Shown: in pieces, positions 4,203-54,202 of the stretch
Position numbering within the stretch: the stretch's first letter is position 1
How the letters are laid out: every line of letters starts with the position of its first letter
Assembly (NCBI GenBank): GCA_963663235.2
Contig: CAXXNO010000012.1
Coordinates: 1 to 64,000, forward strand
Direction of reading: 5' to 3'
Length of the DNA: 64,000 nt
From: Dehalococcoidia bacterium
GTDB lineage: Bacteria; Chloroflexota; Dehalococcoidia; Bin125
Notes under the pieces: model-generated
Seen by the model: only the letters and a program-made list of their open reading frames with translations
Databases searched by the model: none
What the model was told of the DNA's origin: nothing
Position numbers and translations under genes: made by a program

Positions 4203-4490
4203 TCACCGCCATCCGCTGCCGGTACTCCCCCGGTTCCATTCTCCCGTTTGCATGGTCTCCGCCAACACGCAGACGGCATCCCATACGTTCACATAGCGGA
4301 CGTACGGCGGCGCGAAGCCGAAACGGAGCAGGTCGGGCGCGCGGAAGTCGCCAATCACGCCCCGCGCGATCATCGCCTGCATAATCGGATACCCCTCGAC
4401 ATGCCGGTACGAGACCTGACTGCCGCGCGACGCCGCATCACGCGGAGAAGCGAGCGTAAAGCCGTACGAAGTACACTGCTCCTCCATCAA
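4203..4490 (-). pseudogene. kynU: Kynureninase C-terminal fragment
   Basis: RGSQVS..H.EGYPIMQAMIARGVIGDFRAPDLLRFGFAP.YVRY..VWDAV; the N-terminal ~300 aa are absent. Confidence 0.8.
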
Positions 4491-4596
4491 CCCGTCGCCA
4501 ATCGCGACCGTCAGCGTCGCAATGTCGACGACTCAACTCGACGGCGCTTCACGGATGGAGTCTCGAACCGTCATAGGTACAAAGATCCGCGCCCGA

Positions 4597-29390: not shown

Positions 29391-29400
29391 AGCGCGCGCC

Positions 29401-32460: not shown

Positions 32461-32534
32461 CGCTGTGCACCAGCGAAGATTGCCGCCCGTTAGACTTCCT
32501 TCCCTCGAAGCATGTGGAATGGGGAGCGAGTGCC

Positions 32535-33335: not shown

Positions 33336-33485
33336 GACCGCCTCGAACCATCGACGGCTTGAGCGAGCCCGCGGCCGAGACGGCCGTACTCCGCCGAGTG
33401 CCGTCGTGAGCCGCATCGACACCAGCGCCACACGGGCTCCGCAGCCGCAAGCGGCCGGTAACACGACAGCCACGCGATGCGGAAC

Positions 33486-34532
33486 ATGAAAACACGCGCC
33501 CTCACCATCACCGACGGCCAGCAACTCGCCCTCCGCGAGATGGACCTCTATCCCGAGCCTGGCGAAGTCCTCCTCAAAGTCCACGACTGCGGCATCTGCG
33601 GCTCCGACCTCCACGCCCTCAAGTTCCCGCACGTCTTCAGCTCCGGCCCCGGCTTCGTCCTCGGTCACGAGTTCAGCGGCGAGGTCGCGGAAATTACCCC
33701 CGAGGCCCGAGCCCTGACCGACTGCCGCCCCGGCGACCGCGTCGTCGCCCTCCCCTCCATCGGCTGCGGCGACTGCGCCGACTGCCTCGCCGGACTGGAG
33801 TGGCGCTGCGTCACCAAGCGTGGCGTCGGCCTCGGCTCCGTCCCCGGCGCTTTCGCCGACTACGTCCGCGCCGGACCGCGCCAGCTCTTCCGCATCCCGG
33901 ACGGACTCTCTTTCCGCCATGCCGCCCTCACGGAGCCGCTCGCCGTCGCGCTGCACGGCGTCCGTCGCGCCCGCCTGGCCCCCGGCGATCCCTGCCTGAT
34001 CATGGGCGCGGGCCTCATTGGCCTCTTCGCCCTCGTCTGGGCGCGACTGGCCGGCGCCGAGCCCATCGTCGTCTCCGACCCCGCCCCCACCCGACGCGAG
34101 CAGGCGCTCGCCCTGGGCGCGCACGACACCGTCGATCCTCAATCCAACGATCCCGGCGCCCGCATGCGCCAACTCGCCGGCGGACGCTGGCCGCGGGTGG
34201 TGCTGGAATGCGTGGGGACGCGGCCAACCTTGCAGGAGGCCATGCGCCTCGCCGCGCGCGGGGGCCGCGTTATCGTGCTCGGCATCTCCATGGAGCCCTA
34301 CGACCTCCAGCCCATGACCGCGCACGCGAAAGAGTTGGAGATACATTATGTGTTCGCTTATTCTCACGACGAATTCGCCGAGGCGCTGCAGGCCCTGGCC
34401 CGGGCCGCCATCCCCGCGGAAGACCTGATCACCGACGTCATCGCGCTCGACGCTGTCCCCGCCATGTTCGCCGCGCTCGCCCACCCGACCACGCAGGTCA
34501 AGGTGCTGGTGGAGCCCGCTCTGCGCGCTTGA
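33486..34532 (+). CDS. Zinc-dependent (MDR) alcohol dehydrogenase
   Basis: CGSDLH, GHEFSG, CGDCADC..C, GAGLIG. Confidence 0.93.
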   Translation: MKTRALTITDGQQLALREMDLYPEPGEVLLKVHDCGICGSDLHALKFPHVFSSGPGFVLGHEFSGEVAEITPEARALTDCRPGDRVVALPSIGCGDCADCLAGLEWRCVTKRGVGLGSVPGAFADYVRAGPRQLFRIPDGLSFRHAALTEPLAVALHGVRRARLAPGDPCLIMGAGLIGLFALVWARLAGAEPIVVSDPAPTRREQALALGAHDTVDPQSNDPGARMRQLAGGRWPRVVLECVGTRPTLQEAMRLAARGGRVIVLGISMEPYDLQPMTAHAKELEIHYVFAYSHDEFAEALQALARAAIPAEDLITDVIALDAVPAMFAALAHPTTQVKVLVEPALRA

Positions 34533-34572
34533 ACGCCCCTGCGATCCATTCCGGCAGCGGCTAGGATGGAAG

Positions 34573-35658
34573 GTGATGACCACCGCCGGGAAGCCAAACG
34601 CCGCGCGCAAACAGCCGCCCGTTCGCAAGCCACGCTCACCGCGCGGCAAGCAGGCGCAGCGGGCTGCGGAGATCCACCCGCAGTTCGACCTCTCCAATCA
34701 GGCGCTGGTCGATCTCTGGTACAAGATGGTGCTGGCCCGCCGCATCGCGGAGCGCTGGTTCATCTTGAACCGGCAGGGGCGCGCCCCCTTCGTGATCACC
34801 GGCCAGGGCCACGAGGCCACCCAGGTCGGGACCGCCGCCGCGCTCACCCCCGGCAAGGACTGGGCGGTGCCCTACTACCGCGACATCGGCGTCGTCCTGG
34901 TGCTGGGCATGACGCCCTACGAGCTGATGCTCAACGTCTTCGCCAAGGCGGACGACCCCAACAGCGGCGGACGCCAGATGCCCACGCACTGGAGCCACCG
35001 CGACCTGCGCATCGTCTCCGGCTCCAGCGTGGTTGCCACCCAGGTGCCCATCGCGGCGGGTGTCGCCTGGGCCGCCAAGCTGCGCGGCGAGGACAGCGTC
35101 ACGGTGGCGTACTTGGGCGAGGGCTCGACGAACCAGGGCGACTTCCATGAGGGACTGAACTTCGCCAGTGTGCAGCGCCTTCCCCTGATCGTGGTGGTGG
35201 AGAACAACGGCTACGCCATCACCGAGCAGCAGGAAAAGGAGATGGCCATCCAGGACGTCGCCGACCGCGCAGCCGCCTACGGCATTCCCGGTGTCGTGGT
35301 CGATGGCAACGACCTGCTGGAGGTCTATCGCACCATGCAGTGGGCGGTGCACCAGGCCCGCACCGGCCACGGCCCCACCTTGCTGGAGGCCAAGACCTAC
35401 CGCACGGTCCCCCACTCCTCTGACGACGACGACCGACGCTACCGCACCCGCGAGGAGCTGGAGCTCTGGCTCAAGCGCGATCCCATCGACCGCTTCCGCA
35501 AGCTCCTCATCGACGACGGCGTCCTCACCGACGAGCACGCCGAGCAACTGCTGAACGACGCCACGGAGGAGATCCGCGCCGCCCAGGCCCAGGCCGAGGA
35601 CCGGGCCGATCCCGACCCCGCCACCCTCCTCGACCATCTCTTCGGATCGCCCGCATGA
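34573..35658 (+). CDS. bkdA: Branched-chain 2-oxoacid dehydrogenase E1 alpha
   Basis: GGRQMPTH, GEGST...NN TPP motif, PHSSDDD. Confidence 0.9.
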   Translation: MMTTAGKPNAARKQPPVRKPRSPRGKQAQRAAEIHPQFDLSNQALVDLWYKMVLARRIAERWFILNRQGRAPFVITGQGHEATQVGTAAALTPGKDWAVPYYRDIGVVLVLGMTPYELMLNVFAKADDPNSGGRQMPTHWSHRDLRIVSGSSVVATQVPIAAGVAWAAKLRGEDSVTVAYLGEGSTNQGDFHEGLNFASVQRLPLIVVVENNGYAITEQQEKEMAIQDVADRAAAYGIPGVVVDGNDLLEVYRTMQWAVHQARTGHGPTLLEAKTYRTVPHSSDDDDRRYRTREELELWLKRDPIDRFRKLLIDDGVLTDEHAEQLLNDATEEIRAAQAQAEDRADPDPATLLDHLFGSPA

Positions 35659-36635
35659 CCGCCGTCTCCATCGCCGATGCCATCCGCTCCGCGCACCAGG
35701 AGATCATGCGCGCCGACGAACGGGTCATCCTGCTCGGTGAAGACGTCGAGACCGGCGGCGTCTTCCGCATCACCGAAGGCTTGCTCGATGAGTTCGGCCC
35801 CCAACGGGTCTTCGACACGCCGCTGGCGGAGTCCGGCTTCGTAGGCGCGGCTATCGGCGCCGCGCTCGCGGGGATGCGCCCAATCGTGGAGATCCAGTTC
35901 GTGGACTTCATTCTCCCGGCCATCAACCAGCTGATCTCCGAGGCCGCCAAGATGCGCTACCGCAGCATCGGCGAATGGTCGGTGCCCATGGTCGTGCGCT
36001 CCCCCTACGGCGGCGGCGTGCACGGCGGCCTCTACCACTCCCAGTGCTTCGAGGCGCTCTTCGCCCACGTCCCCGGCTTGAAAGTCGTGATGCCCGCCAC
36101 CCCCGCCGACGCCAAGGCGCTCCTGCACACCGCCGTAGCCGATCCCGACCCCGTGATCTTCCTGGAGCACAAGCGCTCCTACCGGCTCATCAAGGACGAG
36201 GTGCCGGAGCCGCTGCCGGAGGTGCCCATCGGCAAGGCGATCGTCCGCCGCGACGGTGACGACGTCGCCATCATCGCTACGGGCCTCATGGTCCACGAGA
36301 GCCTCGCCGCCGCCGAGCAACTGGCCGGCGAGGGAGTCGACTGCCTGGTGCTGGACTTGCGCTCCATCGCCCCGCTGGACCGTGATGCCATCATCGACGC
36401 GGTGCAGCGCACCGGCAAAGTGGTGATCACGCACGAGGATCACCTCACCGGCGGCATCGCCGGCGAGGTCGCGGCGATCATCGCCGCCGACGCCTTTGAG
36501 CACCTGGACGGCCCCATCAAGCGCGTGGCCGGGCCCGATGTCCCCGCCATGGGCTACCACCCCAACTTCGAGAAGGCCTTCATCCCCGACGCCGAGCGCA
36601 TCGCCGCCGCCGCGCGGGATCTCGCGGCCTACTGA
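35655..36635 (+). CDS. bkdB: 2-oxoacid dehydrogenase E1 beta
   Basis: GEDV..GGVFRIT, DTPLAE, EIQFVDF, HSQ. Confidence 0.92.
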   Translation: MTAVSIADAIRSAHQEIMRADERVILLGEDVETGGVFRITEGLLDEFGPQRVFDTPLAESGFVGAAIGAALAGMRPIVEIQFVDFILPAINQLISEAAKMRYRSIGEWSVPMVVRSPYGGGVHGGLYHSQCFEALFAHVPGLKVVMPATPADAKALLHTAVADPDPVIFLEHKRSYRLIKDEVPEPLPEVPIGKAIVRRDGDDVAIIATGLMVHESLAAAEQLAGEGVDCLVLDLRSIAPLDRDAIIDAVQRTGKVVITHEDHLTGGIAGEVAAIIAADAFEHLDGPIKRVAGPDVPAMGYHPNFEKAFIPDAERIAAAARDLAAY

Positions 36636-36643
36636 GCGCATCG

Positions 36644-37897
36644 ATGGCCACCCTCACCATGCCACAGTTGGGCGAGACCGTGACCGAAGGCACGGTGCTC
36701 CGATGGCTGAAGCAGCCCAACGACCACATCGACCTCGACGAGCCCTTGGTCGAGATCGACACCGAGAAGGTCAACGTCGAGATCCCCTCACCCTTCGCCG
36801 GCACGCTGGCCGCCATCCTCGTGCCCGAGGGCGAGACCGTGCCCGTGGGCACGCCGCTCGCCGAGATCGCCGGCGCTGAGGAAGCGGCCCCCGCGGCTCC
36901 CGCCCCCACCGCCAAACTGGCCCCCAAACCAGCCGCTCCTCCACCGCCGCAAGCGCCCCCAATCACTTCGAAAGCCGCCCCGAAAACCGCGCCAAAAACC
37001 GCTGTAAGGCCCGGCGGCGACCGGCCCCGTGTCCTCTCCCCCGTCGTCGCCCGCCTCGCCGCCGAGCACGGCATCGACCCGGCCACTCTCGCCGGCACCG
37101 GCGCAGGCGGTCGCGTGACCAAGAAAGACGTGCTGGCCGCCATCGAGACGGGTCCGGCCGCCGCGCCCGCCCCTGCTCCCGCAGCAGCGCAGAGAGCCGG
37201 CGACGTCGCGACTCCCCTCTCGCCCATGCGACGCGCCATCGCCGAGCACATGCTCCGCAGCAAGCGCAGCGCGCCCCACGCCTGGCTGGTGATCGAGACC
37301 GATGTCACCGGGCTGGTGCGCGCCCGTCAGGCGCTCAAAGATTCGTTCCGGGAGCGCGAGGGGGTGGACCTGAGCTACCTCGCCTTCGTCTCCAAGGTCG
37401 TCACCCAGGCCCTCCGCGACTTCCCTCCCATCAACTCCACCTGGGACGGCGACCAGCTCTACGAGCGCGGCGACGTCAACCTCGGCTTCGCCGTCGACGT
37501 GCCGGACGGGCTCATCGTCCCCGTGGTCAAGCAGGCCGACCGCATGAGCGTCGCCGCGCTGGCCCACGCCATCGCCGATGTCGCCGCGCGCGCCCGCGCC
37601 GGTCGCCTCAAGCTGGACGAGGTGCAAGGCGGTACGTTCACCATCGACAACACCGGCACCTTCGGCACCACGCTCTCCGCCCCCATCATCAACCAGCCCC
37701 AGGTCGCCATCCTCACCACCGAGGCGATCGTCAAACGGCCCGTGGTCGTGGACGACGACGCCATCGCCGTGCGCTCCATGCAGAACCTCTGCTGCTCCTT
37801 TGACCACCGCGCCCTGGACGGCGCCATCGCCGCCCGCTTCACCGCCCGCGTCAAGGCCCTCCTCGAAGCCATCGGCCCCGACACGGCGATCTACTAG
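36644..37897 (+). CDS. Dihydrolipoamide acyltransferase E2
   Basis: Lipoyl domain (DTEKV), E3-binding GTGAGGRVTKKD, FDHRALDG. Confidence 0.93.
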   Translation: MATLTMPQLGETVTEGTVLRWLKQPNDHIDLDEPLVEIDTEKVNVEIPSPFAGTLAAILVPEGETVPVGTPLAEIAGAEEAAPAAPAPTAKLAPKPAAPPPPQAPPITSKAAPKTAPKTAVRPGGDRPRVLSPVVARLAAEHGIDPATLAGTGAGGRVTKKDVLAAIETGPAAAPAPAPAAAQRAGDVATPLSPMRRAIAEHMLRSKRSAPHAWLVIETDVTGLVRARQALKDSFREREGVDLSYLAFVSKVVTQALRDFPPINSTWDGDQLYERGDVNLGFAVDVPDGLIVPVVKQADRMSVAALAHAIADVAARARAGRLKLDEVQGGTFTIDNTGTFGTTLSAPIINQPQVAILTTEAIVKRPVVVDDDAIAVRSMQNLCCSFDHRALDGAIAARFTARVKALLEAIGPDTAIY

Positions 37898-38400
37898 ACG
37901 GCCCGACCTAGCCCCAACTCCCCCACCCGACGACGCGCCACCGCCTCTACACTGCCCAGCTCCCGCCACGCCGCTCGCACCGCCGCGGCCGGCATCAGCA
38001 GCTCTGCGGCAAAGGCATCGCACAGCGCCTCTCGGCTCCGCGGGCCCAGCCCCTCACCGCACGCGCTCCCCGCGCCCTGGACCCCCAGCGCACATGCCCG
38101 ATCTCGTGCGCCAGCGTGAAGCGCGCCCGCGCGCGGGCGTCGCGCGCGTTGAGGAGCACCACCCATCGGCCCTCCACCAACGACACCACCCCCCGCACCC
38201 GCGCGTGCAACTCCTCCTCCAGCACCACTGCCTCGCGATGGTCCAGCCGGCGCAGGCACTCGATCAACGGGACGGGGGCCCGGCCGCCCGCGGCGGCGGC
38301 CAGCCGCCGCGCCAGGCGCTGCATGGAGAACCGCAGCTCCAGCCGTTCGGTTCGCTCAGCTCTCCGGGGGCGGCTCGCTCTGCCCCTCGGAGGGCTCACG
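37894..38400 (-). pseudogene. ImmA/IrrE-family metallopeptidase, frameshifted
   Basis: RFTLAHEIGH in one frame and EALCDAFAAELLMP in another. Confidence 0.75.
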
Positions 38401-38880
38401 CATAAGTCGGCGCGCCCGCTCGAACGCTTCGTCCAGGGAGGCGTGCGCCACGGCCCGCTCCGCCTCGCCCTCATATAAGAGTTTCCAGTCCTCCCGTGTG
38501 GCCGGGCGCAGGAGTCGACGCCGACGCTCCTCTTCATACGCGGGGTTGGTGAACCACTCAATGCTGCGCCCCAGGACGTCGGCGATCTGCTGCAGCGTGT
38601 GCGGATCGATCCCGCGCCGCCCCCGCTCGATATCCGACAGCCAGTTCTTCTGCCGCCCCACCCTCGCCGATAGCTGCTCCTGCGTCAGTCCCGCATGCAG
38701 GCGGCCCGCCCGCAGCCGTTTCCCCAACGCGGCGCGCTGCCGGGCAGCCTCGCCGCCCTCGGCTCCCCGTTCCGCCGCTCTCGATTCGCCCCGTGGGGGT
38801 TGGTCCACCACGCTGCCGTGACTCCAGTCGATCCTGCGCGCTTGTCGCACAGTCGTACATTCGCTATCATATACCCGCAC
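38356..38880 (-). CDS. XRE-family HTH regulator (start uncertain)
   Basis: LGKRLRAGR..AGLTQEQLS...WLSDIERGRR. Confidence 0.85.
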   Translation of the reverse strand: MRVYDSECTTVRQARRIDWSHGSVVDQPPRGESRAAERGAEGGEAARQRAALGKRLRAGRLHAGLTQEQLSARVGRQKNWLSDIERGRRGIDPHTLQQIADVLGRSIEWFTNPAYEEERRRRLLRPATREDWKLLYEGEAERAVAHASLDEAFERARRLMREPSEGQSEPPPES

Positions 38881-38982
38881 ATCGCGAACCGCAACCCCAC
38901 CGACTCACGGTGGCCCCGATCGAGAGGTCTCCGTGAGTCGTATCCCAGATCCAACAACCTTCCTCACCCACTCGGCGCCACC

Positions 38983-39936
38983 GGTTCTATCAGATCTCAG
39001 GGCTCGTCGGCGTAGCGTCGCCTCGTTCATGACGCAACGAGGAGACGCCGATGCACTGTCCGCACTGCCGCTCGACTGCGACGACCAAGCGCAGGCATCG
39101 CACGACGCTAGGCTACCAGCGATTCAACTGTCGCGCGTGTGGACGGCGCTTCAACGAGCGGACCGGCACGCCCTTCAACGATCTCCAGTACCCGACGGAC
39201 CTCGTGCTGCTCGCCGTGCTGTGGCGCCTGCGGTACAAGCTCAGCTTCCGGGACGTCGCCGAACTGCTCCTCGAGCGAGGCTACACGGTGACGCATGAGA
39301 CGATCCGCGATTGGGAGTTCCGCTTCGCGCCACTCCTGGCGGACCGGCTTCGCGCCAAGCGGCGCGGTCGCGCGGGCGTCTCCTGGTACATCGATGAGAC
39401 CTACGTGAAGGTCGCCGGGCGATGGTGCTACCTCTATCGCGCGATCGACCGGGAGGGCGCGCTGCTCGATTCGATGCTGAGCGCGCACCGCGACAAGCAC
39501 GCCGCGCGACGCTTCCTGCGGGGTCTCATACAGATCGCCGAACGGAAGCCCTTACGCATCACGACCGACGCGCATCCCGCGTATCGCAAGGCGATCCGGT
39601 GGATCGTCGGGCGGAAGGTGCGACATCGCTGCAATCAATACCTCAACAACTGGATTGAGCAGGATCACCGCGCCATCAAGCAGCGCTACTATCCGATGCG
39701 GGGCTTCGGGCGGTTCGCTTCCGCTGCCCAGTTCTGCGCGGCCTTCGATGCGCTGCGCCAGTACTTTCGCGTTCCGCCCCGGCCCGGACTACCGATCCCG
39801 TTGGCGACGCGGCGCCCGCTGTTCGTCGCCCGCTGGCGGTCCCTGATCCAGGAGATGCAGGTCGCCTAGGACACCATCAACGCTCGCCGGATCACCACGC
39901 ATCGTTGGCCCCGCTGCCCTCAGATCTGACAGAACC
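38983..39936 (+). mobile_element. IS6-family insertion sequence, copy 2 (954 bp)
   Basis: Near-identical to 9332-10285; three differences seen. Confidence 0.93.
39051..39869 (+). CDS. IS6-family transposase
   Basis: Protein identical to 9400..10218. Confidence 0.95.
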   Translation: MHCPHCRSTATTKRRHRTTLGYQRFNCRACGRRFNERTGTPFNDLQYPTDLVLLAVLWRLRYKLSFRDVAELLLERGYTVTHETIRDWEFRFAPLLADRLRAKRRGRAGVSWYIDETYVKVAGRWCYLYRAIDREGALLDSMLSAHRDKHAARRFLRGLIQIAERKPLRITTDAHPAYRKAIRWIVGRKVRHRCNQYLNNWIEQDHRAIKQRYYPMRGFGRFASAAQFCAAFDALRQYFRVPPRPGLPIPLATRRPLFVARWRSLIQEMQVA

Positions 39937-40610
39937 CGGTGAGGGTGTTCAGGTATCGATTGCATCGGTGCCGCACCGTTCTCCCCAGGATCCCGCGGAT
40001 CGCTCGGCGGTACGGCGGATGCGGGTCCGTCGTGACACGCTCGGGCTTGCGCTCGGCCACGTCCACCAGGCGGCGCAGGAAGCGCCGGGCGGCATGCGTG
40101 TCGCGCTGCGCCCTCCGCCTCGAATCGAGGAGTGCCCCCTCGCGATCGATGGCCCGCTACAGGTAGCACCAGCGGGCCGCGCCCTTCACGGAGGTCTCAT
40201 CGATGGACCAGGCGACCCCGGCGCGGCCGCGGCGCTTGGCCCGGAGCGGGTCCGCCAGGAGCAGCGCGAGGCGGAACTCCCAACTCCGGATCGTCTCGTG
40301 CGTGACTGCGTGGCCCCGCTGGAGGAGCAGCGCGGCCACGTCCCGGAAGCGGAGCGTGTACCGCAGGCGCCACAGCACGGCGAGGAGCACGAGGTCCGTC
40401 GGGTCCTGGAGATCGTTGAACGGCGTGCCGGTCCGCTCGTTGAAGCGCCGTCCGCATGCCCGGCAGCGCAACCTGGGGTAGCCGAGCGTGGTGCGGGGCT
40501 TGCGCTTGATCGTCGCGGTCGAGCGGCAGTGCGGACAGGGCATGGCGTCTCCTCGTCGCGTCATGGGCAAGGCTACGCCACGCCTACGAGTCCTGAGATC
40601 TGACAGAACC
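39937..40610 (-). pseudogene. Degenerate related IS6 (left end at 40610, ATG at 40543), premature TAG, 3' end cut by IS6 copy 2
   Basis: Collinear with the intact transposase, no indels; many radical substitutions. Confidence 0.9.
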
Positions 40611-40945
40611 AGCAGATGCTGTGCTGCCCGTGCGTGTGCCACCGGCCGACGTCGTTTCGCCGGGCTCAGAAGTTTCCCGAGGCCACCTCACGCAGGATCG
40701 AGTTGTCCAGCGCCTGCTCCGCGACCAGCTGCTTCAGCCGCGCGTACTCGCGCTCCAGCTCCTTCAGCCGCTTCGCCTGGTCGACCCGCATCCCGCCGTA
40801 CTCGCGACGCCAGCGGTAGTAGGTCTGCTCACTCACCCCGAGCTTGCGCACCGCCTGGCCCACCGTATCGCCCTGGGCGAGGTGGACCTCTGCCTCCCGC
40901 AGCTTGGCGATGATCTCCTCAGCTGCGTACCGCTTCCGCTTACTC
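40611..40945 (-). pseudogene. IS3-family (IS407-like) orfA and start of orfB, truncated
   Basis: KRYAAEEIIAKLREAEV...EQTYYRWRREYGG...SGNF; ends GGGAAACTTCTGA. Confidence 0.85.
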
Positions 40946-40987
40946 GCCCAGACGAGCTGTGGGGAACCGACGCCACACGCGCGTTCA

Positions 40988-41050
40988 TTCACAAGAGGTA
41001 TACGAGCTGAGAAAGCAACTGGTCGAACCTGTCTTCGGAATCATCAAGGT
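40988..41050 (+). pseudogene. Tiny IS1182/IS5-like transposase fragment
   Basis: QEVYELRKQLVEPVFGIIK (Y..R...VEPVFG.IK motif). Confidence 0.55.
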
Positions 41051-41200
41051 ATCGATTGTCGTCCTCCGCCGTCTCGGGCTCGATGGTGGAGGCGCCCTCC
41101 TTGACGAAGACGCTCTCTCCGGGAGAGCTGCCAATCCCAAACAAACCGGCGGGTGCGTCGGTTGCCAGGTCTACGGAAACTGTGTACGTCGCGTCCGCCG

Positions 41201-42514
41201 CTACTCATACCAGCCCGATCCAAATAGCAGCCCGTCATGCCGCACAATCCAAGTGTGTTTCTGACGGTCCTCGCCCGATTCCGGGTTGAGCAACACATAG
41301 TCGACCCAATGACCCGCCTCAGTGGCGCTCAGTAAGTCGTCGCCATAGAAATACCCCGTGGCGTCCACACGGAGGCTGGGATCACGCCCTCGAAACTGCG
41401 GGTTATGGTGGGCTATCGTGTAGCCGTCTTGGTCGATGATGAAGACATACCACTGGCCGTCAACACTCTCCTGGGCGTTGTAGTAGGCGACCGTCTCCTC
41501 CAGGCCGAGGGCGACGTAGAGGTTTATGGCCTGCCGCACGAAGGCCTTGGTGTAGGCGGGGGCGTCGGACTTGCTGGGGCCGCGTTCGTACCAGCCGGAG
41601 CCGAAGGTAATGCCGTCGTGGATCACCACCCAGGAGTGCTTGGTCTCCACAACGCCAGAGGCGGGATTGGGATAGGTGTAGTCGAACCAGGCGCCGTCCT
41701 GGTCGGCGGAGGCGGCGACGGCGGACCCTGTGGGGTAGGAGTTGGGTCCGAGAGCCTGGGAGACGTGCTTGCCCACGAGGTCGGGGTTGGGGGCATGAGC
41801 GATGATGGTCTGGTTCTCATCGATGATGAAGACATACCACTGGCCGTCAACGCTCTCCTTGGCGTTGTAGTAGGCGACCGTCTCCTCCAGGCCGAGGGCG
41901 ACGTAGAGGTTCATGGCCTGCCGCACGAAGGCCTTGGTGTAGGCGGGGGCGTCGGACAGGTCCTGCTCGACCAGCGTCCCAGCTTCAAGCCGGAACTGAC
42001 GAATCACGGCAATCGTCGGGGGCTCCGCAAACGGCTCGTGCGGCGCCCGGTCGAACATGGCGACGGTAATGACGCCGTCGTGGATGGAGACGCCCTCGAC
42101 CCGGATGCGATCACCGAGGAACGCGACGGCCGCATCGGAAAGCTCGCCGTCATCGTCGACCAGTGCGTGAAGGTAGGAGAACGTGCCGCTGCCACCGGGG
42201 TCCTCGACCGTAACCGAGGCCGCATCGACCCCGTCACGCCCATCGATATGGCCGGTGGTCCACTTGCCGAGCCGAATGACGAGCTCGCTGGCCGAGCCCT
42301 CGGCGACCGGCTCACGGAACTCGCCGTCTTCGAGTGTGGCCGTGCCCTCCCTGCTGTTCTCAGTGAGATACGTGGCCTGTTCGAGAGTGGCGCCCGTTGG
42401 TGCCCCTGGACCGTCGCCGCCGCACGACACCATCAGCATAGCGCCGAGCAGCAGCGCTCCGAGGAAGAGCAAGCGAGTCCCGGTTCGGGATCTTCTATGT
42501 GGGCCTGACATCAT
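41201..42514 (-). CDS. Lipoprotein with two tandem single-Cache-type domains
   Basis: Lipobox MVSC; duplicated SDAPAYTKAFVRQA.NLY..LGLEETVAYYN..ESVDGQWYVFIID...FGSGWYE. Confidence 0.8.
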   Translation of the reverse strand: MMSGPHRRSRTGTRLLFLGALLLGAMLMVSCGGDGPGAPTGATLEQATYLTENSREGTATLEDGEFREPVAEGSASELVIRLGKWTTGHIDGRDGVDAASVTVEDPGGSGTFSYLHALVDDDGELSDAAVAFLGDRIRVEGVSIHDGVITVAMFDRAPHEPFAEPPTIAVIRQFRLEAGTLVEQDLSDAPAYTKAFVRQAMNLYVALGLEETVAYYNAKESVDGQWYVFIIDENQTIIAHAPNPDLVGKHVSQALGPNSYPTGSAVAASADQDGAWFDYTYPNPASGVVETKHSWVVIHDGITFGSGWYERGPSKSDAPAYTKAFVRQAINLYVALGLEETVAYYNAQESVDGQWYVFIIDQDGYTIAHHNPQFRGRDPSLRVDATGYFYGDDLLSATEAGHWVDYVLLNPESGEDRQKHTWIVRHDGLLFGSGWYE

Positions 42515-42557
42515 CTCTATTCCTTTCCGGCAGCGCAGGCCGAAGATTGTAGGCGCC

Positions 42558-42679
42558 CCCAGTTCCAGCGCGAGCGAGTCGCGCAGGAATGTTTCCAGTG
42601 ACTCCCTGATCTCCTTGGCTTCGGCCTTTGGCCCGATGAAGCCCAGTACGAAGTCGTCCGCGTAGCGGACGTATCGCAG
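42558..42679 (-). pseudogene. Group II intron reverse transcriptase fragment
   Basis: LRYVRYADDFVLGFIGPKAEAKEIRESLETFLRDSLALEL. Confidence 0.8.
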
Positions 42680-42722
42680 TGACCTGCCCCAGCCTTTGTA
42701 CCACTTCCTAAGTTAGAGCCAG
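42680..42722 (-). mobile_element. Orphan IS3/IS407-type terminal repeat
   Basis: TGACCTGCCCC, the same as the ends at 52953 and 54202. Confidence 0.6.
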
Positions 42723-42803
42723 GACAGGTGCGAGCCGTCCCGGCGTGACCGGTTCAGGTGCCGCTTCCGGTTATGCTACAAGGAAATGTCGTCCGCCCGA
42801 ATG

Positions 42804-44398: not shown

Positions 44399-44440
44399 AC
44401 GATCCAGGTATGTGGTGGCGGGGGCTGATATGCCGGAAGC

Positions 44441-45712
44441 ATGCAGGCGCCACACGACAACCGCCCGGGCCGTGCGCCCACGTGGCGCTCGCGCATCGTC
44501 GGCCACGGCGACGCCGATCCGCAGACCCTCGTCGCCCACCCGGAAAATTGGCGCGCGCATCCCCGCAACCAGCGTCGCGCCATGGCCGGCGTGCTTGACC
44601 GTGTGGGCTGGGTGCAGGACGTGATCGTCAACCGGCGCACGGGGCGGATCCTGGACGGCCACCTGCGAGTGGCCTTGGCGCTGGAACGCAGGGAGGCAAC
44701 GGTCCCCATCGTGGAGGTCGATCTGCGTGAGGACGAAGAGCGCGTCATCCTCGCGACCTTCGACCCGCTGGGAGCCATGGCGAACGGCGACGCCGACGCA
44801 GTGCAGGATCTGCTGGCGCGCGTGACGGCAGAGGAAGCCGCCGTCGCCGATCTGCTCGGACGGCTCGCCGCCGCGCATCCTGCCACGCCCGATCTGCGTG
44901 CCGACCCGGATGCCGTACCGGAACCGCCGCCGGAGCCGGTCTCGCGGCCGGGGGACTGTTGGACCTGTGGTCCACACCGGGTCTGGTGCGGCGACGCCCA
45001 GGATGCCGCGGCCGTTGCCGGCCTCTTCCCCGACGGCCCCGCCGGCTGGATGTGGACCGACCCGCCGTACGGGATCTCCTACACCGGCAAGACGCCCGCG
45101 GGACTCACGATCGCGGGCGATGCCGCCGACGGGCTGGAGCCGCTCCTCCACGAGAGCTTCCGCGCGGCCGACGCCGTGCTCGCCCCCGGCGCCAGCATCT
45201 TCGTCGCTCACCCGGCCGGGCCGCATAGTCTCGGCTTCGGCGCGGCGTTCCTGGCGGCCGGCTGGCACTGGCACCAGACCCTGACCTGGGTGAAGGACAC
45301 GCTGGTGCTCGGACACAGCGACTTCCACTACCGGCACGAACCCATCCTGTACGGCTGGAAGCCCGGCCGCGCGCACGGCTGGTACGGCGGCCGGGCGGAA
45401 GATTCCATCTTCGCGCTGCCGCGCCCCGCGGCCAGCCGAGCGCATCCGACCATGAAGCCGGTGGCGCTGATCGCGGCCCAACTAGCACTGACCACCCGGC
45501 CCGGCGACCTGGGCTACGACCCCTTCGCCGGGTCGGGCTCCACGCTGATCGCCGCCGAGCAACTCGGGCGGCGCTGCGTGGCCGTTGAGATCGGCCCGCG
45601 CTACGCCGATGTGATCGTGCAGCGCTGGCAAAACGCCACCGGGGGCACCGCGACGCTGGCCGATGATGGCCGCACGTTCGCGCAGATGCAGGAGGTGCGC
45701 CATCGCCGGTAG
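44441..45712 (+). CDS. Phage-type ParB/Srx-domain + N6/N4 DNA methyltransferase
   Basis: HPENWRAH...ILDGHLR (ParB); TDPPYG, HPTMKPVAL, DPFAGSGSTLIAA. Confidence 0.9.
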   Translation: MQAPHDNRPGRAPTWRSRIVGHGDADPQTLVAHPENWRAHPRNQRRAMAGVLDRVGWVQDVIVNRRTGRILDGHLRVALALERREATVPIVEVDLREDEERVILATFDPLGAMANGDADAVQDLLARVTAEEAAVADLLGRLAAAHPATPDLRADPDAVPEPPPEPVSRPGDCWTCGPHRVWCGDAQDAAAVAGLFPDGPAGWMWTDPPYGISYTGKTPAGLTIAGDAADGLEPLLHESFRAADAVLAPGASIFVAHPAGPHSLGFGAAFLAAGWHWHQTLTWVKDTLVLGHSDFHYRHEPILYGWKPGRAHGWYGGRAEDSIFALPRPAASRAHPTMKPVALIAAQLALTTRPGDLGYDPFAGSGSTLIAAEQLGRRCVAVEIGPRYADVIVQRWQNATGGTATLADDGRTFAQMQEVRHRR

Positions 45713-46121
45713 ACACACCAAGCTGACGCCCGAGGTCCACCAGCAGATCGTGGCCTTCATCCGCGCCGGCGCCTACGACTGGGTCGCCGCCGAGGCCGCG
45801 GGGATCGGCAAGTCCACGTTCTACCGCTGGCTCGAACGCGGCGAGGCGAGTGCCGCGGAACCGCATCGCATGTTCATGGTGGACGTGCGGGAGGCGCGCG
45901 CGCAGGCACGGGTGGCGGCCGAGACCGAAGTTCGGCGCGACAACCCGCTCGCCTGGCTGCGCTACGGCCCGGGACGCGATCGCGCCGGGGAGCCGGGCTG
46001 GACGGAACGGCATGAGATTGCGGGAGCCGACGGCGCGCCGGTGCGCTTCACGCTCGCCCTGGGATCCGGCAATGAGCCGGAGGGCACCGACGCATCCGAC
46101 GGAGGAGCCGACGATGCCTGA
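45663..46121 (+). CDS. Putative terminase small subunit (HTH)
   Basis: GRHTKLTPE...AAEAAGIGKSTFYRW; lies between the methylase and TerL; GGAGG is followed by ATC at 45702. Confidence 0.7.
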   Translation: MMAARSRRCRRCAIAGRHTKLTPEVHQQIVAFIRAGAYDWVAAEAAGIGKSTFYRWLERGEASAAEPHRMFMVDVREARAQARVAAETEVRRDNPLAWLRYGPGRDRAGEPGWTERHEIAGADGAPVRFTLALGSGNEPEGTDASDGGADDA

Positions 46122-47658
46122 GGCGCGCGTGATCACGTACGACCGACCGCCGCTGTACCCCAAGCAGCAGGCCGCGATCTTTGCCCCCGCGCGCTACGCG
46201 GTGATCGAGGCCTCCACCAAGAGCGGTAAGACGCACGGCTGCTTGGCCTGGCTGTTCGAACAGGCCGCGCAGGGCGGGCCCGGGCAGCATTACTGGTGGG
46301 TGGCGCCGGTGGCCGCGCAGGCCCAGATCGCCTACCGGCGGCTCAAGGCGGTGATCCCGCACGGGCTCGCGCGCGCCAATGCAACCGATGCCACCCTGAC
46401 CCTGGCCAACGCCGCCACGATCTGGTTCAAGAGCGCCGAAACCCCGGACCACCTCTACGGCGAGGATGTCCACGCCGCCGTGATCGATGAGGCGACGCGC
46501 GTCAAGGAAGCGGCCTGGCACGCGCTGCGCTCGACGCTGTCCCACACCCGCGGCCCGGTGCGGATCATCGGCAACGTCCGGGGCCGCCGCAACTGGGCCT
46601 ATCGCATGGCCCGCCGGGCGGAGGCGGGCACGCCGGACATGCACTACGCGCGCCTCACCGCCACCGACGCGGTGGCCGCCGGCATCCTGACCGCCGCCGA
46701 AGTGGACGATGCGCAACGGCAATTGCCGGCGGACACGTTCCGGGAGTTGTACTTCGCCGAGCCGGCCGACACCTACGCGTTGGTGTACGCCTCCTTCGGC
46801 GCCGACAACATCAGCCCCGCCGCCGAGTACGCCCCCGGCGCCGGGCCGCTCTACGTGGGGTACGACTGGGGGTTCACGGATCTCACGCACATTGGACTGT
46901 ACCAGCTGCGCGACGAGATGCTGTACCAGTTCGATGAGTTGGTTGGCAACCGGCAGCCCGAGCGGATCTGGGTGCGCCGCGTGGTCGAGCGCGTCCTGGC
47001 GCTGCCGGACTACCGCGGCCCCACGCTGGCGGAGTGGGAGGAGATCTGGGCGGGCCGCGCGGCCCCGGCCCCGCACTGGCCCGACGTCTGGCCGGATTGG
47101 GCGGTCGGGGATCCGTCGGCAGTGCAGCTGCGCCAGACCTTCAAGGCGCACGGGATCTCGGCGCCCGGGCCCGACAAGGTGCGCCACGCGGTCGTCAGCG
47201 GCCAAGACGTGTTGCGGGCGCTGATCTGGAGCGGGGAGGACCGCCGGCGCTTCGTGCTGCATCCGCGCTGCACGGCCACCCGGGAAGCGTTGGAAAATTA
47301 CCGGGCGCTGGACCTCGGGGAAGGCGTCTACGATGCCCGCCCAGACCCCGACCCCGCCAATCACGTCTACAGCCACGGGACCGACCAGGCCCGCCACCTC
47401 GTCTGCTGGTACCGCAACGATCGTGCGAACTGGGAGTGGGGGGAGGAAGCCCGAGACGCGCGCATCACCTGCCCGGCGCTGATGGTGACCGCGGGACGAG
47501 ATCCGGTGCTGACGCCGTCGTTGTCGGCCGGGATGGAGCGGGTGATCCCCCAGCTCCAGCGCGGGCACATCGAAGCTTGCGGCCATTGGACACAGCAGGA
47601 GTGCCCCGAGGAGCTGAATCGCCTCCTGTGCGACTGGCTCACGGAGCTGTCGGCCTGA
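46114..47658 (+). CDS. Terminase large subunit fused in frame (near 47405) to an epoxide-hydrolase-like C-terminal fragment
   Basis: STKSGKT Walker A, VIDEA Walker B, GYDWG, DPS, HGTD; then WYRN..ANWE...ITCPALMV...D.VL...CGHWTQQE. Confidence 0.8.
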   Translation: MPEARVITYDRPPLYPKQQAAIFAPARYAVIEASTKSGKTHGCLAWLFEQAAQGGPGQHYWWVAPVAAQAQIAYRRLKAVIPHGLARANATDATLTLANAATIWFKSAETPDHLYGEDVHAAVIDEATRVKEAAWHALRSTLSHTRGPVRIIGNVRGRRNWAYRMARRAEAGTPDMHYARLTATDAVAAGILTAAEVDDAQRQLPADTFRELYFAEPADTYALVYASFGADNISPAAEYAPGAGPLYVGYDWGFTDLTHIGLYQLRDEMLYQFDELVGNRQPERIWVRRVVERVLALPDYRGPTLAEWEEIWAGRAAPAPHWPDVWPDWAVGDPSAVQLRQTFKAHGISAPGPDKVRHAVVSGQDVLRALIWSGEDRRRFVLHPRCTATREALENYRALDLGEGVYDARPDPDPANHVYSHGTDQARHLVCWYRNDRANWEWGEEARDARITCPALMVTAGRDPVLTPSLSAGMERVIPQLQRGHIEACGHWTQQECPEELNRLLCDWLTELSA

Positions 47659-49593: not shown

Positions 49594-49803
49594 TGGGCGA
49601 TCTCCTCATCGTGCCTGCACCGAGGCCCCCGACGCACCGGGGCCGATCCACGCGAGCGATGGGTCAGAGCGCTCGATGCGGTCTCGCGTCGCCGCTGAGC
49701 GGAAAGTCTAGCAGCGCGCCATCATCGTGGCGCGTCCGCTGATGAGTCCAATGCAGACCGCGAGGGAATCTACAGACAGCCTCAGCGTCGTGGAAAGCCA
49801 AAC

Positions 49804-52952: not shown

Positions 52953-54202
52953 TGACCTGCCCCCCCAGAACCGGTCCAGATCCTGTGCGAGGATTCGGGC
53001 CGGTGCGAAGGCCTCCCCGAGTCGGCATGGCACGCAAGCGGTACGCGGCCGAGGAGATCATCGGCCACCTGCGGGAGGCGGAGGGGGTGCTCGCGCCGGG
53101 GGAATCGGTCGCGCCGGTCGCGCGCCGCCTCGGCGTGGCCGAGCCAACGTATTACCGCTGGCGGCGGGAGGACGGGGGGCTGCGGGTCGACCCGGCCAAG
53201 CGGCTGAAAGAACGGGAGCGCGAGAACAGTCGGCTGAAGCGGGTGGTGGCCGATCAGGCGCGGGCCAACGCGATGGTGCGGGACGTCGCAGCGGGAAACT
53301 TCTGAGCCCGGCCAAGCGGCGCCGGGCGACATCCTACCGCACGGACCCGTACGCGGTGGCGGAGCGGCGGGCCGGCCCGGTCACCGGCCAGGCGCGGGCG
53401 ACCCAGCGCGACGTGCCCCGGCCGTCCCCGGATGCGCCGGCGCTGATCGCGCGCAGCGTCGCGCTGGCCCCCCGCTGCGGCCGCTACGGCTCCCGTCGCA
53501 TCCCGGCCCGGCTGCGCCAGGCGGGCTGGCGGGTGAACCCCAAGCGGGTCGAGCGGCGCTGGCGTCAGGAAGGCTGGCGGGTCCCCGGGAAGCACCCCCA
53601 ACGGGGCCGCCGCTGGCTCGCGGCCGGCTCGCTGGTGCGGCGGCGGGCCGAGCGGCCGTCCCACGTCTGGTCCTCCGCCTTCGTCTTCGACCGCACCGCC
53701 GAGGGGCGCCCGGTGCGGATCCTCGCCATCGTGGATGAGGACCACCCGCGAGGGCCTGCGTCTCGACGTCGCCCGCCGACGGCGCCGCGACGTCGGCCTG
53801 GCGCGGTTGGCCCAGCTGTTCGTCGAGCGCGGGCCGCCGACGTTTCTGCGGTCCGCCAACGGCCCGGCGTGCACCGCCACCGCGGTGCGGGACTGGCTGC
53901 ACCGGGTCGGGGGCACGACCCGCTTCATCGAACCGGGCAGGCCTTGGGCGAACGGCTCTGGGGAATCGTTCAACGGCAAGCTGCGCGACGCGTGCCTCAA
54001 TCGCGAGCGCTTCGACACCCTGCTGGAAGCCCAGATCCTCATCAAGGGCTGGCGGCGGGAGGACAACCCGATCCGCCCCCACCGTGCCCTCGGCTCCCGC
54101 CCCCCCGCCCCGGAAACGCAGCAACCCCGGGAACGTCCCATGACGCGCGTCCCGGCGATCGGACTCACCTTAACGACTGGTACAACGATCGGGGGCAGGT
54201 CA
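52953..54202 (+). mobile_element. Full-length but degenerate IS3-family (IS407-like) element
   Basis: TIRs TGACCTGCCCCC / GGGGGCAGGTCA; orfA 53027-53305; orfB heavily substituted, with a frameshift near 53742. Confidence 0.9.

What the first reader, a model, noticed from the sequence alone, without database searches (positions are those of the whole stretch)
39937..40610. Dead IS6 copy degraded almost only by A>C / T>G transversions (possible RIP-like, element-directed hypermutation)
Seen: aligned codon by codon with the intact transposase next to it, this copy has no indels, and its radical changes at conserved sites are nearly all A:T>C:G. Examples: CAC>CCC (H2P), TAC>GAC, AAG>ACG (x3), AGC>CGC, GAA>GCG, TCC>GCC, TAC>TCC (x2, incl. 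DETY>DETS), GTC>GGC, TAT>TAG stop, ATG>AGG, CTG>CGG, TGG>GGG, AAC>ACC. Both strands are hit and there is no obvious sequence context. Established: neutral bacterial decay is usually transition-rich and AT-biased; A:T>C:G dominance is the signature of 8-oxo-dGTP/MutT loss, and A:T transversions are elevated at methylated adenines. Inference: the few readable lesions in non-IS relics here look different (apparent L>P/V>A T>C changes in kynU and aas, a probable C>T stop in the integrase). The process may therefore target IS/repeated DNA, like a bacterial analogue of fungal RIP.
Basis: partly seen in the sequence, partly recalled or inferred. Interest (0 to 1): 0.9.

Follow-up and report, generated by a model that had tools for sequence, protein, structure and literature searches.

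The report
Transposon relics scarred by A-to-C changes
A broken jumping gene in this Chloroflexota genome, like other dead jumping genes here and in related genomes, has been altered almost only by one rare kind of base change that stops at the element's edges, which hints at an undescribed process acting on repeated mobile DNA.

Summary
The stretch is a real IS6-family relic: minus strand, 39939-40611, 200 codons, no indel, one TAG, cut off by the intact copy next to it. The neighbour is not its ancestor (82% nt). Only 23 of 115 raw differences are A>C/T>G.

After polarising against other copies, the core observation holds. A:T>C:G is 16 of the 24 nonsynonymous changes derived in the relic's lineage. 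It is 96 of 187 in four degenerate IS6 lineages, against 37 of 380 in 18 intact-looking ones.

A 15-copy dead IS3-family element shows the same pattern. 39 of 45 shared derived changes are A:T>C:G, while 23 private changes are ordinary.

Controls are ordinary: the flanks, a kynU fragment, a terminase-like gene, other duplicates and large segmental repeats.

The load is therefore element-confined and is not current genome-wide decay.

The mechanism is unresolved. My best reading (0.35) is recombination-coupled, MutY/8-oxoG-type A:T>C:G drive among IS copies. A host-wide MutT-like episode, jump-coupled error-prone synthesis and a RIP-like defence remain possible. Base-level read support is incomplete.

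The parts
39939..40611 (-). IS6-family relic ('B'): left inverted repeat, 5' leader and the first 200 codons of the transposase frame. GC is 72% against 64-66% on both sides.
   Evidence: (PF13610, 78.6 bits, profile 3-96 of 139).
40593..40611 (-). Left terminal inverted repeat of the relic. It is identical to the variant carried by several intact copies.
   Evidence: Alignment of 14 elements.
40157..40159 (-). TAG stop at codon 129. It is specific to this copy; the G041 copy has GAT, and intact relatives have TAT or TAC.
38983..39938 (+). Intact IS6-family element ('A'), CDS 39051-39869 (272 aa). It is one of 6 copies with an identical protein. Its right inverted repeat truncates the relic at codon 200. 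No 8-bp target duplication is visible.
   Evidence: PF13610, 141 bits.
40612..41200 (-). IS3-family relic into which the IS6 relic is inserted. Its orfA (40669-40992, HTH_Tnp_1) is unscarred. It serves as the adjacent dead-DNA control: 6 substitutions against G041 (4 transitions, 1 G/T, 1 C/G).
39937..42779 (.). Block shared at 98% with G041 (record OY762959.1, 431896-434733). Elsewhere the two genomes match at about 70% or less, so this is a horizontally shared block.
41201..42514 (-). Cache-domain protein gene inside the shared block. It serves as a flank control: 5 substitutions in 1314 nt.
52953..54202 (+). One of about 15 copies of a dead IS3-family element ('IS3x'). GC is 74-75%, the ends are conserved and the flanks are unique. 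It carries the same A:T>C:G load.
4206..4532 (-). C-terminal fragment of kynureninase (KYNU_C, 106 bits). It is the non-IS relic used as a control.

Best explanation
WHAT THE STRETCH IS
The stretch is the 5' two thirds of an IS6-family element. It belongs to an older lineage than its intact neighbour. It sits inside an IS3-family relic and was cut off at codon 200 by the intact copy. It lies in a 2.84-kb block that is shared at 98% with a distant Chloroflexota genome.

WHAT HAPPENED TO IT
Its radical lesions are genuine A:T>C:G substitutions, and most of them were inherited. The same nearly pure A:T>C:G load marks other dead IS6 lineages and a 15-copy dead IS3-family element. The load ends at the element borders.

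MOST LIKELY MECHANISM
The changes are made or favoured when IS copies pair or are copied from one another. A.G (or A.8-oxoG) mispairs form in heteroduplex or repair synthesis between copies. An adenine glycosylase of the MutY type resolves them to C:G. C:G alleles therefore spread from copy to copy. This amounts to a transversion-specific biased gene conversion. It meets no resistance in copies that no longer need to encode a transposase, because they are moved in trans.

SHOWN
- The substitution class and its direction.
- Confinement to the elements.
- Sharing of the changes among copies.
- Ordinary spectra everywhere else that was examined.

INFERRED
- The link to recombination.
- The enzyme involved.
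- Mobilisation in trans.
For: 1. CLASS AND DIRECTION. Derived A:T>C:G changes: 24 of 59 in the G041 copy, 25 of 72 in L009, 23 of 84 in E and 24 of 73 in L016. In the closest intact-looking relative C they are 0-1 of 37-46. In 18 intact-looking lineages they are 74 of 915.

2. IS3x WITHIN THIS GENOME. 39 of 45 shared derived changes are A:T>C:G, against 6 of 23 private ones (Fisher 1e-6). Fixed differences to two 85% relatives are asymmetric only in this class: 33 against 3.

3. IS3x ACROSS GENOMES. A:T>C:G per copy is 5-11 in G003, 10-20 in G041 and 26-42 in G000. Every other class stays constant.

4. CONFINEMENT. 30 substitutions in the 675-nt relic, against 6 in the adjacent 589-nt IS3 relic and 5 in the 1314-nt Cache gene.

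5. EXCHANGE BETWEEN COPIES. C4:49293-48334 is a mosaic of relic-type and intact-type sequence. 243 of 595 site pairs in IS3x fail the four-gamete test, with a weak distance effect (p=0.055). Some states that differ between the relic and the G041 copy occur in paralogues of the same genome.

6. CHEMISTRY. The signature is context-free and affects both strands. This matches the mutT/8-oxoG signature described in PMC10625568 (passages read). A 248-aa MutY-like glycosylase is present. It covers positions 3-212 of the 277-position mutY profile and so lacks the C-terminal part.

7. NO INDELS. There are none in the 200-272 codons of B, L028 and L009. The background ratio is 14 gap openings to 77 substitutions. 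That ratio predicts about 7 indels for 38 changes.

8. FUNCTIONAL ENDS. The IS3x ends are conserved and lie at 12 different sites.
Against: - No tract structure was found. A GENECONV-like permutation test on IS3x gave global p=0.22. The best pair gave p=0.0035 among 66 pairs, which does not survive correction. The reticulation could equally be recurrent mutation at hot sites.
- Parallel hits also occur between lineages that sit in different genomes, for example 6 sites shared by L028 and L016 where about 3 are expected.
- Known GC-biased conversion favours transitions as well. Here transitions are nearly absent.
- The acceleration needed is about 20-fold over A:T>G:C. That is close to the maximum a 15-copy family can give.
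- Since the split from G041 the relic gained all classes of change, not only A:T>C:G (13 transitions, 11 A-C/G-T, 5 C-G, 1 A-T).
- MutS1 is present (748 bits), so heteroduplex mismatches need not go to a glycosylase.
- The glycosylase's activity and its role were not tested.
- The large two-copy segments (99.4-99.9% identical) show no such bias.
Confidence: 0.35

Rival explanations
1. Host-wide MutT-type pressure, constant or episodic. The lineage lacks, or once lacked, efficient 8-oxo-dGTP sanitation. A:T>C:G then dominates mutation everywhere. It is visible only in DNA under no constraint, such as dead IS copies.
For: - No match to the mutT model reaches its cut-off. The best is 34.6 bits against 97.9.
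- The signature is context-free, as described for mutT mutants.
- GC3 of intact genes is 0.82-0.94. That is compatible with strong AT>GC pressure.
- Among the 23 private IS3x changes, A:T>C:G has the highest rate per site: 6 per 319 A/T sites, against 7 G:C>A:T per 923 G/C sites.
- A:T>C:G events follow the availability of A/T sites by codon position (0.11, 0.14, 0.08), as expected without selection.
Against: - Recent changes are ordinary. Private IS3x changes include 6 A:T>C:G of 23.
- Five large repeats show 48 transitions against 19 A-C/G-T pairs.
- A two-copy dead IS3 relative shows 9 against 4.
- The flank of the relic shows 7 transitions against 3.
- The adjacent IS3 relic gained 1 A-C/G-T difference while the IS6 relic gained 11 over the same time (p=0.007).
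- The kynU fragment has 0 A:T>C:G among 7 deviating columns.
- The mutT test is weak, since only 3 of 14 control genomes pass the cut-off.
- An episodic burst would have to recur in three genera (G000, G003, G041).
Confidence: 0.25
2. Jump-coupled error-prone synthesis. Each replicative transposition (IS6 cointegrate or copy-in, IS3 copy-out) copies the element with a low-fidelity polymerase. That polymerase inserts oxidised dGTP opposite A. Scars therefore build up per jump and are inherited by daughter copies.
For: - Confinement from end to end of the element.
- Both affected families are replicative transposers (my knowledge; IS26 copy-in appears in the abstract of PMC8477213, listing).
- Scar load is highest where the copy number is highest.
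- Y-family and DnaE2 error-prone polymerases are encoded, one pair of them in this window.
Against: - Each newborn copy should carry private scars. Only 6 private A:T>C:G changes exist in 15 copies, and 9 of the 12 full-length copies have none.
- The six intact IS6 copies differ at only about 5 sites.
- G041 has 2 copies yet carries more scars than G003 has with 5.
- The mutational signature of these polymerases is unknown here.
Confidence: 0.15
3. A dedicated genome defence that senses repeated or mobile DNA and mutates it.
For: - Point mutations without indels.
- Confinement to IS elements and a sharp stop at their ends.
- Two unrelated IS families are hit in several genomes.
- Catalytic and zinc-finger residues are destroyed while the reading frames stay open.
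Against: - The changes are mostly shared rather than private to each copy.
- The six intact IS6 copies, three hydantoinase paralogues and the large two-copy segments are untouched.
- No candidate enzyme was found, and none was searched for systematically.
- A-to-C cannot arise by simple base deamination (my knowledge).
Confidence: 0.12
4. Assembly or sequencing artefact in repeated DNA.
For: - All heavily scarred records come from metagenome assemblies.
- Repeats are the hardest part to assemble.
- Base-by-base read support was not obtained. Only contigs were laid, and 293 of 333 differences were not shown.
Against: - The same derived states occur in two independent genome records. 12 of the 16 example codons are shared by G000 and G041.
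- Scarred proteins occur in records from other sources. P0111 is held by ncbi and ena. P0014 is from an ncbi 3.3-kb contig and shows three Tyr-to-Ser changes.
- Contigs of 4 runs from 4 studies cover the relic.
- Errors would be private and would include indels, whereas the scars are shared and free of indels.
Confidence: 0.05
5. Selection. The scarred reading frames are domesticated or regulatory proteins, for example transposition inhibitors. They would be evolving by convergent amino-acid change.
For: - Frames of 272 codons stay open in L028, L009 and several database proteins.
- The same residues change in parallel in several lineages.
- The first two catalytic Asp are kept in the relic.
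Against: - A:T>C:G changes can create stops from only two rare codons, so open frames are expected without selection (my reasoning).
- The events follow A/T availability at all three codon positions.
- IS3x carries a frameshift in orfB and has lost a catalytic Asp, yet it shows the same load.
- This copy has a stop and is truncated.
Confidence: 0.04

Closest known systems
Repeat-induced point mutation (RIP) of fungi
   Same: Point mutations without indels. They are confined to repeated mobile DNA, stop at its borders and riddle the coding frame with radical changes.
   Different: RIP makes C:G>T:A transitions by deamination, during the sexual cycle, on every duplicated copy, and it lowers GC (recalled). 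Here the class is A:T>C:G and GC rises by about 5 points. The changes are mostly shared among copies. Intact multi-copy IS and other duplicates are spared. No enzyme is known.
MutT-deficiency / GO-system (8-oxoguanine) mutational signature
   Same: A context-free A:T>C:G (T>G) signature on both strands (PMC10625568, passages read).
   Different: A mutT defect acts genome-wide. Here recent changes outside the scarred elements are ordinary.
GC-biased gene conversion in bacteria (Lassalle et al. 2015; seen only as a reference, not read)
   Same: Changes from A/T to G/C rise in frequency where sequences recombine. Derived C:G alleles are shared among copies far more often than other classes.
   Different: Only the transversion class is favoured, with 1 shared A:T>G:C against 39 A:T>C:G. 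The arena is dispersed dead IS copies, not homologous exchange between cells. No conversion tracts were detected.
IS6 family insertion sequences (IS26-like)
   Same: DDE_Tnp_IS240 domain, a short terminal inverted repeat, a single transposase of about 270 aa, and nesting with adjacent rearrangements.
   Different: This copy is truncated before the catalytic Glu, has a stop codon and is not a derivative of its neighbour.
Diversity-generating retroelements
   Same: Adenine-directed mutagenesis of a defined DNA segment (recalled; a DGR paper appeared in the listing).
   Different: DGRs change A to any base, on one strand, in a variable repeat, through a reverse transcriptase. Here the change is A>C only and affects both strands over whole elements. 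A reverse transcriptase or template repeat was not searched for.

Membership tests
IS6 family (the relic itself) | Transposase with the DDE_Tnp_IS240 / IS6-type catalytic domain. | tested here: met
   PF13610 at 78.6 bits over profile positions 3-96 of 139. The intact neighbour scores 141 bits.
IS6 family (the relic itself) | Terminal inverted repeats at both ends. | tested here: inconclusive
   The left repeat is present and identical to that of intact copies. The right end is missing because the element is truncated. The full-length G041 copy has both ends.
IS6 family (the relic itself) | Complete DDE triad. | tested here: not met
   The first two Asp are present (IDETS, TTD). The Glu region lies beyond the truncation at codon 200. 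It is therefore a relic, not an active member.
RIP-like repeat-directed mutagenesis | Mutations are confined to duplicated DNA and stop at its border. | tested here: met
   30 substitutions in the 675-nt relic against 11 in 2168 nt of flank (p=2e-11).
RIP-like repeat-directed mutagenesis | All sufficiently similar duplicates are hit, each copy independently, giving private changes. | tested here: not met
   39 of 45 shared changes are A:T>C:G, against 6 of 23 private ones. Intact IS6 copies, hydantoinase paralogues and large repeats are spared.
RIP-like repeat-directed mutagenesis | C-to-T transitions made by a cytosine methyltransferase-like enzyme. | tested here: not met
   The class here is A:T>C:G. 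No enzyme search was made.
MutT-type general mutator | Context-free A:T>C:G on both strands. | tested here: met
   (46 A>C, 50 T>G).
MutT-type general mutator | Acts on the whole genome. | tested here: not met
   The spectra are ordinary in private IS changes, flanks, other duplicates, the kynU fragment and the terminase-like gene. This holds for recent change only. A past episode was not tested.
MutT-type general mutator | Absence of a MutT 8-oxo-dGTPase. | tested here: inconclusive
   The best TIGR00586 match is 34.6 bits against a cut-off of 97.9. Only 3 of 14 control genomes pass the cut-off. The genome is 92% complete.
GC-biased gene conversion | Evidence of exchange between the sequences concerned. 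| tested here: inconclusive
   There is a mosaic copy, and 243 of 595 site pairs are incompatible. The tract test gave p=0.22.
GC-biased gene conversion | Derived G/C alleles reach higher frequency than other classes. | tested here: met
   Shared against private, A:T>C:G against the rest: 39/6 against 6/17, p=1e-6.
GC-biased gene conversion | Both transitions and transversions towards G/C are favoured. | tested here: not met
   1 shared A:T>G:C against 39 A:T>C:G.
Diversity-generating retroelement | A reverse transcriptase with a template/variable repeat pair. | not tested
   No search was made. The both-strand, whole-element pattern argues against it.

The most novel reading that the evidence does not exclude
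These Chloroflexota possess a dedicated system that recognises repeated or mobile DNA and converts A:T to C:G pairs within it. This would be a bacterial counterpart of fungal RIP with different chemistry. It would silence transposases without cutting or deleting DNA.
Probability: 0.12. Interest if true: 0.95.

Novelty: new variant of a known kind. Interest (0 to 1): 0.75.

Why it matters
If the pattern is real, a single rare substitution class accounts for nearly all change in dead but still mobile insertion sequences. It occurs in at least three genomes of a bacterial family and stops at the element borders.

Three readings are possible, and each would matter:
- Biased repair between repeats can be transversion-specific and strong enough to destroy genes. 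This bears on the long-running question of how high GC content is maintained in bacteria.
- Copying of mobile elements is locally hypermutagenic.
- Bacteria have a point-mutation defence against transposons.

Each reading is directly testable, because the elements, their graded series of scarred copies and the candidate repair genes are now identified.

There is also a practical warning. In such genomes, long open 'transposase' frames can be dead.

The elements run against the general trend that IS neighbourhoods are AT-enriched (PMC13548323, passages read).

In six full-text searches I found no description of such a pattern.

Tried and rejected
ANALYSES THAT LED NOWHERE OR WERE REJECTED

- Neighbour as ancestor. 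Rejected: 82% identity, a separate lineage, and a closer orthologous copy exists in G041.
- Methylation-motif idea. Rejected for lack of a common context. TAC, TAG, CAT and AAG are high in IS6, whereas GAG, GAC, CAG and CAC are high and AAG is zero in IS3x.
- Amidohydrolase 'pseudogene' (4600-6001) as a neutral control. Useless: the copy on contig C8 is intact (P0122, 459 aa, 99% identical). The frameshift is therefore recent or an error.
- GC2 as a genome-wide index of scarred frames. Too noisy, because many antisense frames score high.
- GENECONV-like tract test. No support.
- Comparisons E/F, G/L009 and H/B. Too few events.
- Relatives. 7 of 41 genomes searched matched the relic's DNA, G000 included. 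None was closer than copies in the own genome. The close copy came from the search for related loci.
- Reads. Only contigs of public runs could be laid. They cover all three bins of the relic in 4 of 4 runs. Only 40 of 333 differences were printed, so each scarred base could not be checked.
- Habitat. Several low-share runs are labelled sponge or seawater metagenomes. I did not lay them and draw no habitat conclusion.
- A correction. My Poisson figure used 15 gap openings. One search gives 14 (2+9+0+2+1). The expectation becomes 6.9 instead of 7.4 and P(0) is about 0.001.
- Rows left out of the tree. Of 79 external loci examined, 37 with one unbroken full-length match went into the tree. The short copies F, G and H were left out.
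- How the conserved-column test for B was set up. I chose 16 intact-looking relatives by eye from the 120 listed. I left out scarred ones (P0003, P0004, P0005, P0008, P0009, P0014, P0015, P0020).
- How the control lineages were chosen. I picked the 18 'intact-looking' lineages as sister pairs from the tree.
- Non-independence. L028/L009 and E/L016 share ancestry, so summed counts include some events twice.
- Closed sources.
Full report
WHAT IS AT THE COORDINATES

The window is contig C12:1-64000 of a 2.75-Mb, 14-contig, 68% GC genome. Records of its relatives are titled Chloroflexota/Dehalococcoidia.

At 38983-39938 (+) lies an intact IS6-family element. Its CDS is 39051-39869 (272 aa; PF13610, 141 bits). 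It is one of six copies that encode the identical protein.

Abutting its right inverted repeat, on the minus strand, lies the finding at 39939-40611:
- a left inverted repeat;
- a 68-nt leader;
- 200 codons that stay in register with the intact transposase;
- no indel in the coding part;
- one TAG at codon 129 (40157-40159);
- PF13610 at 78.6 bits.

The frame ends before the catalytic Glu, so the copy is dead. It is inserted in an IS3-family relic (40612-41200), whose orfA looks intact.

The intact copy and 130 nt of the relic recur together on contig C11, 100% identical over 1085 nt.

Against the neighbour there are 115 differences:
- 43 G<>C;
- 32 A>G/T>C;
- 23 A>C/T>G;
- 12 G>A/C>T;
- 5 others.

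The two are 82% identical. They lie in separate lineages of a maximum-likelihood tree of 42 copies.

The genome holds further diverged IS6 pieces (C, D, E, F, G, H). It also holds a mosaic copy whose first ~170 nt are relic-like and whose remainder is intact-type.

A CLOSE COPY IN A DISTANT GENOME

A scan of species-representative genomes found a full-length copy, L028, in G041 (record OY762959.1). It is 93% identical in protein and has the same flank.

Window 39937-42779 equals G041:431896-434733 at 98%. Window 20000-38900 finds only scattered matches of about 70% or less in G041. The relic therefore travelled in a 2.84-kb horizontally shared block.

L028 is an open 272-codon frame and carries most of the same lesions.
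- 12 are shared with L028: codons 2, 63, 65, 111, 113, 118, 121, 142, 143, 149, 189, 200;
- 4 are specific to this copy: 47, 71, 129 (TAG), 184;
- codon 2 is variable among relatives;
- Thr189 also occurs in an intact-looking relative.

POLARISED COUNTS

I therefore only counted sites where a focal copy differs from two other copies that agree.

| Lineage | A:T>C:G | Other details |
|---|---|---|
| Stem of relic + L028 | 11 of 31 (11 of 15 nonsynonymous) | |
| Relic alone | 5 of 13 | |
| L028 over full length | 24 of 59 (all nonsynonymous) | 3 A:T>G:C, 10 G:C>A:T, 17 G:C>C:G |
| L009 (G003) | 25 of 72 | |
| E (this genome) | 23 of 84 | |
| L016 (G003) | 24 of 73 | |
| C (closest intact-looking relative) | 0-1 of 37-46 | |
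| 18 intact-looking lineages | 74 of 915 (37 of 380 nonsynonymous) | |
| Four degenerate lineages summed | 96 of 288 (96 of 187 nonsynonymous) | Fisher 8e-27 |

Some events are counted in two related lineages.

Further features of the degenerate lineages:
- Events fall on both strands (46 A>C, 50 T>G).
- They follow the availability of A/T sites at the three codon positions (0.11, 0.14, 0.08).
- There are no indels in B, L028 or L009.

Database proteins from other records show the same kind of replacement: Tyr to Ser or Asp, Lys to Thr or Gln, Phe to Cys or Val, Leu to Arg, Trp to Gly, Gln to Pro. This includes records held by a second source (P0111, P0014).

A SECOND FAMILY SHOWS IT MORE CLEARLY

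An IS3-family element of 1.25 kb ('IS3x') has one copy at window 52953-54202.
- It is present in 12 full and 3 partial copies at 96-99% identity.
- The copies sit at different sites and have conserved ends.
- GC is 74-75%, against 69% in two 85%-identical relatives.
- Its orfB is frameshifted and a catalytic Asp is replaced.

Among its copies:
- 23 private changes are ordinary: 6 A:T>C:G, 3 A:T>G:C, 7 G:C>A:T, 4 G:C>T:A, 3 G:C>C:G.
- 45 changes shared by two or more copies, polarised by the two relatives, include 39 A:T>C:G.
- The contrast gives p=1e-6.

Fixed differences to the relatives are asymmetric only in this class. There are 33 A/T-to-C/G against 3 the other way. Transitions are 31 against 25, and C<>G is 26 against 26.

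The element also occurs at 94-96% identity in G003 and G041. At 864 sites where four outgroups agree, the A:T>C:G count per copy is:
- 5-11 in G003;
- 10-20 in G041;
- 26-42 in this genome.

Every other class is constant across all copies.

Site patterns are reticulate, with 243 of 595 pairs incompatible. There is only a weak distance effect (p=0.055) and no detectable tracts (p=0.22).

CONTROLS

- Within the shared block, the 675-nt IS6 relic differs from G041 at 30 sites: 13 transitions, 11 A-C/G-T, 5 C-G, 1 A-T.
- The adjacent 589-nt IS3 relic differs at 6 sites and the 1314-nt Cache-domain gene at 5. The tests give p=2e-11 and 3e-4.
- Five large repeats at 99.4-99.9% identity show 48 transitions, 19 A-C/G-T, 6 C-G, 4 A-T and 14 gap openings.
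- All other duplicated families are transition-rich, including three hydantoinase paralogues and a two-copy dead IS3 relative.

| Sequence | Deviating / conserved columns | Unambiguous A:T>C:G |
|---|---|---|
| Relic | 20 / 159 | 12 |
| Intact neighbour | 11 / 210 | 2 |
| kynU C-terminal fragment | 7 / 57 | 0 |
| Terminase-like gene | 7 / 80 | 1 |

The load is therefore confined to particular dead IS elements. It is not what current mutation in this genome produces.

REPAIR GENES

- No mutT-model match reaches its cut-off. This is a weak test, because only 3 of 14 control genomes pass.
- A 248-aa MutY-like glycosylase lacks the C-terminal part of the profile.
- MutS1 is present.
- No NucS was found.
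- A DinB-like gene is present.
- In this window there is an ImuB-like gene (57053-58396) followed by error-prone DnaE2 (58586-61903; 1029.6 bits against a cut-off of 939).

INTERPRETATION

The class, the lack of context and the strand symmetry match the 8-oxoguanine/MutT signature (PMC10625568, passages). The confinement, the sharing among copies and the ordinary private changes argue against simple neutral decay under a general mutator.

I rank the explanations as follows:
1. A:T>C:G drive among IS copies, coupled to recombination or copying, through MutY-type handling of A.G or A.8-oxoG mispairs (0.35).
2. A host-wide MutT-type pressure that was stronger in the past (0.25).
3. Jump-coupled error-prone synthesis (0.15).
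4. A dedicated RIP-like defence (0.12).
5. Artefact (0.05).
6. Selection (0.04).

None fits everything. The lack of tracts and the transversion-only bias weigh against the first. The adjacency and private-change controls weigh against the second. The scarcity of private scars weighs against the third.

LITERATURE

Six full-text searches returned no description of an element-confined A:T>C:G load in bacterial IS. One paper reports that IS neighbourhoods are generally AT-enriched (PMC13548323, passages). This makes GC-enriched IS copies unusual. Supplements were closed and not seen.

VERDICT

The 'degraded copy of the neighbour' framing is wrong. Element confinement is supported. A RIP-like defence is one of several live explanations. 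Base-level confirmation from raw reads is still missing.

Noticed in passing
window 57053-61903: An ImuB-like Y-family polymerase gene (best NCBIfam Pol IV subfamily 121 bits, below cut-off) is followed by an error-prone DnaE2 (NF004225, 1029.6 bits against cut-off 939). This is a mutagenesis cassette 17 kb from the relic. The whole segment 54196-63477 recurs on contig C9 at 99.6%.
   Followed up: partly
window 52953-54202 and 14 other places in G000; G003, G041: A dead IS3-family element (frameshifted orfB, lost catalytic Asp) has perfectly kept ends. It is 94-96% identical between genomes that are otherwise about 70% identical, so a non-autonomous element is spreading horizontally.
   Followed up: yes
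G000 C11:47108-48192 = window 38983-40067: The intact IS6 copy plus 130 nt of the relic are duplicated, 100% identical over 1085 nt. They sit in a nest with two other IS6 fragments. This suggests IS6-mediated movement of adjacent DNA.
   Followed up: no
G000 C4:48334-49293: A mosaic IS6 copy. The first ~170 nt match the relic type and the rest matches the intact type (97%). It has frameshifts. This is direct evidence of recombination between IS6 lineages.
   Followed up: partly
window 1-10285 = C8:221676-231960 (99.87%); window 4600-6001: A 10.3-kb contig end is repeated inside another contig. An amidohydrolase is frameshifted only in the window's copy. The cause could be a recent mutation, strain variation or an assembly error.
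   Followed up: partly
window 4206-4532: An isolated C-terminal fragment of kynureninase (KYNU_C, 106 bits). It is 84% identical to its best relative and carries no A:T>C:G lesions.
   Followed up: yes
window 44429-47655: A prophage-like remnant. It contains an N6/N4 DNA methylase and a terminase-like gene. The 3' end of the terminase-like gene runs into a C-terminal fragment of an alpha/beta hydrolase.
   Followed up: partly
G000 C12:439751-440377 (outside the window): The only MutY-like gene is 248 aa long. It covers profile positions 3-212 of 277, so it lacks the C-terminal domain that in MutY recognises 8-oxoG (the domain's role is recalled).
   Followed up: partly
window 47767-49605: A hydantoinase B/oxoprolinase gene has two paralogues at 94-97% elsewhere in the genome. 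Their differences are transition-rich and C-G-rich, and so ordinary.
   Followed up: partly
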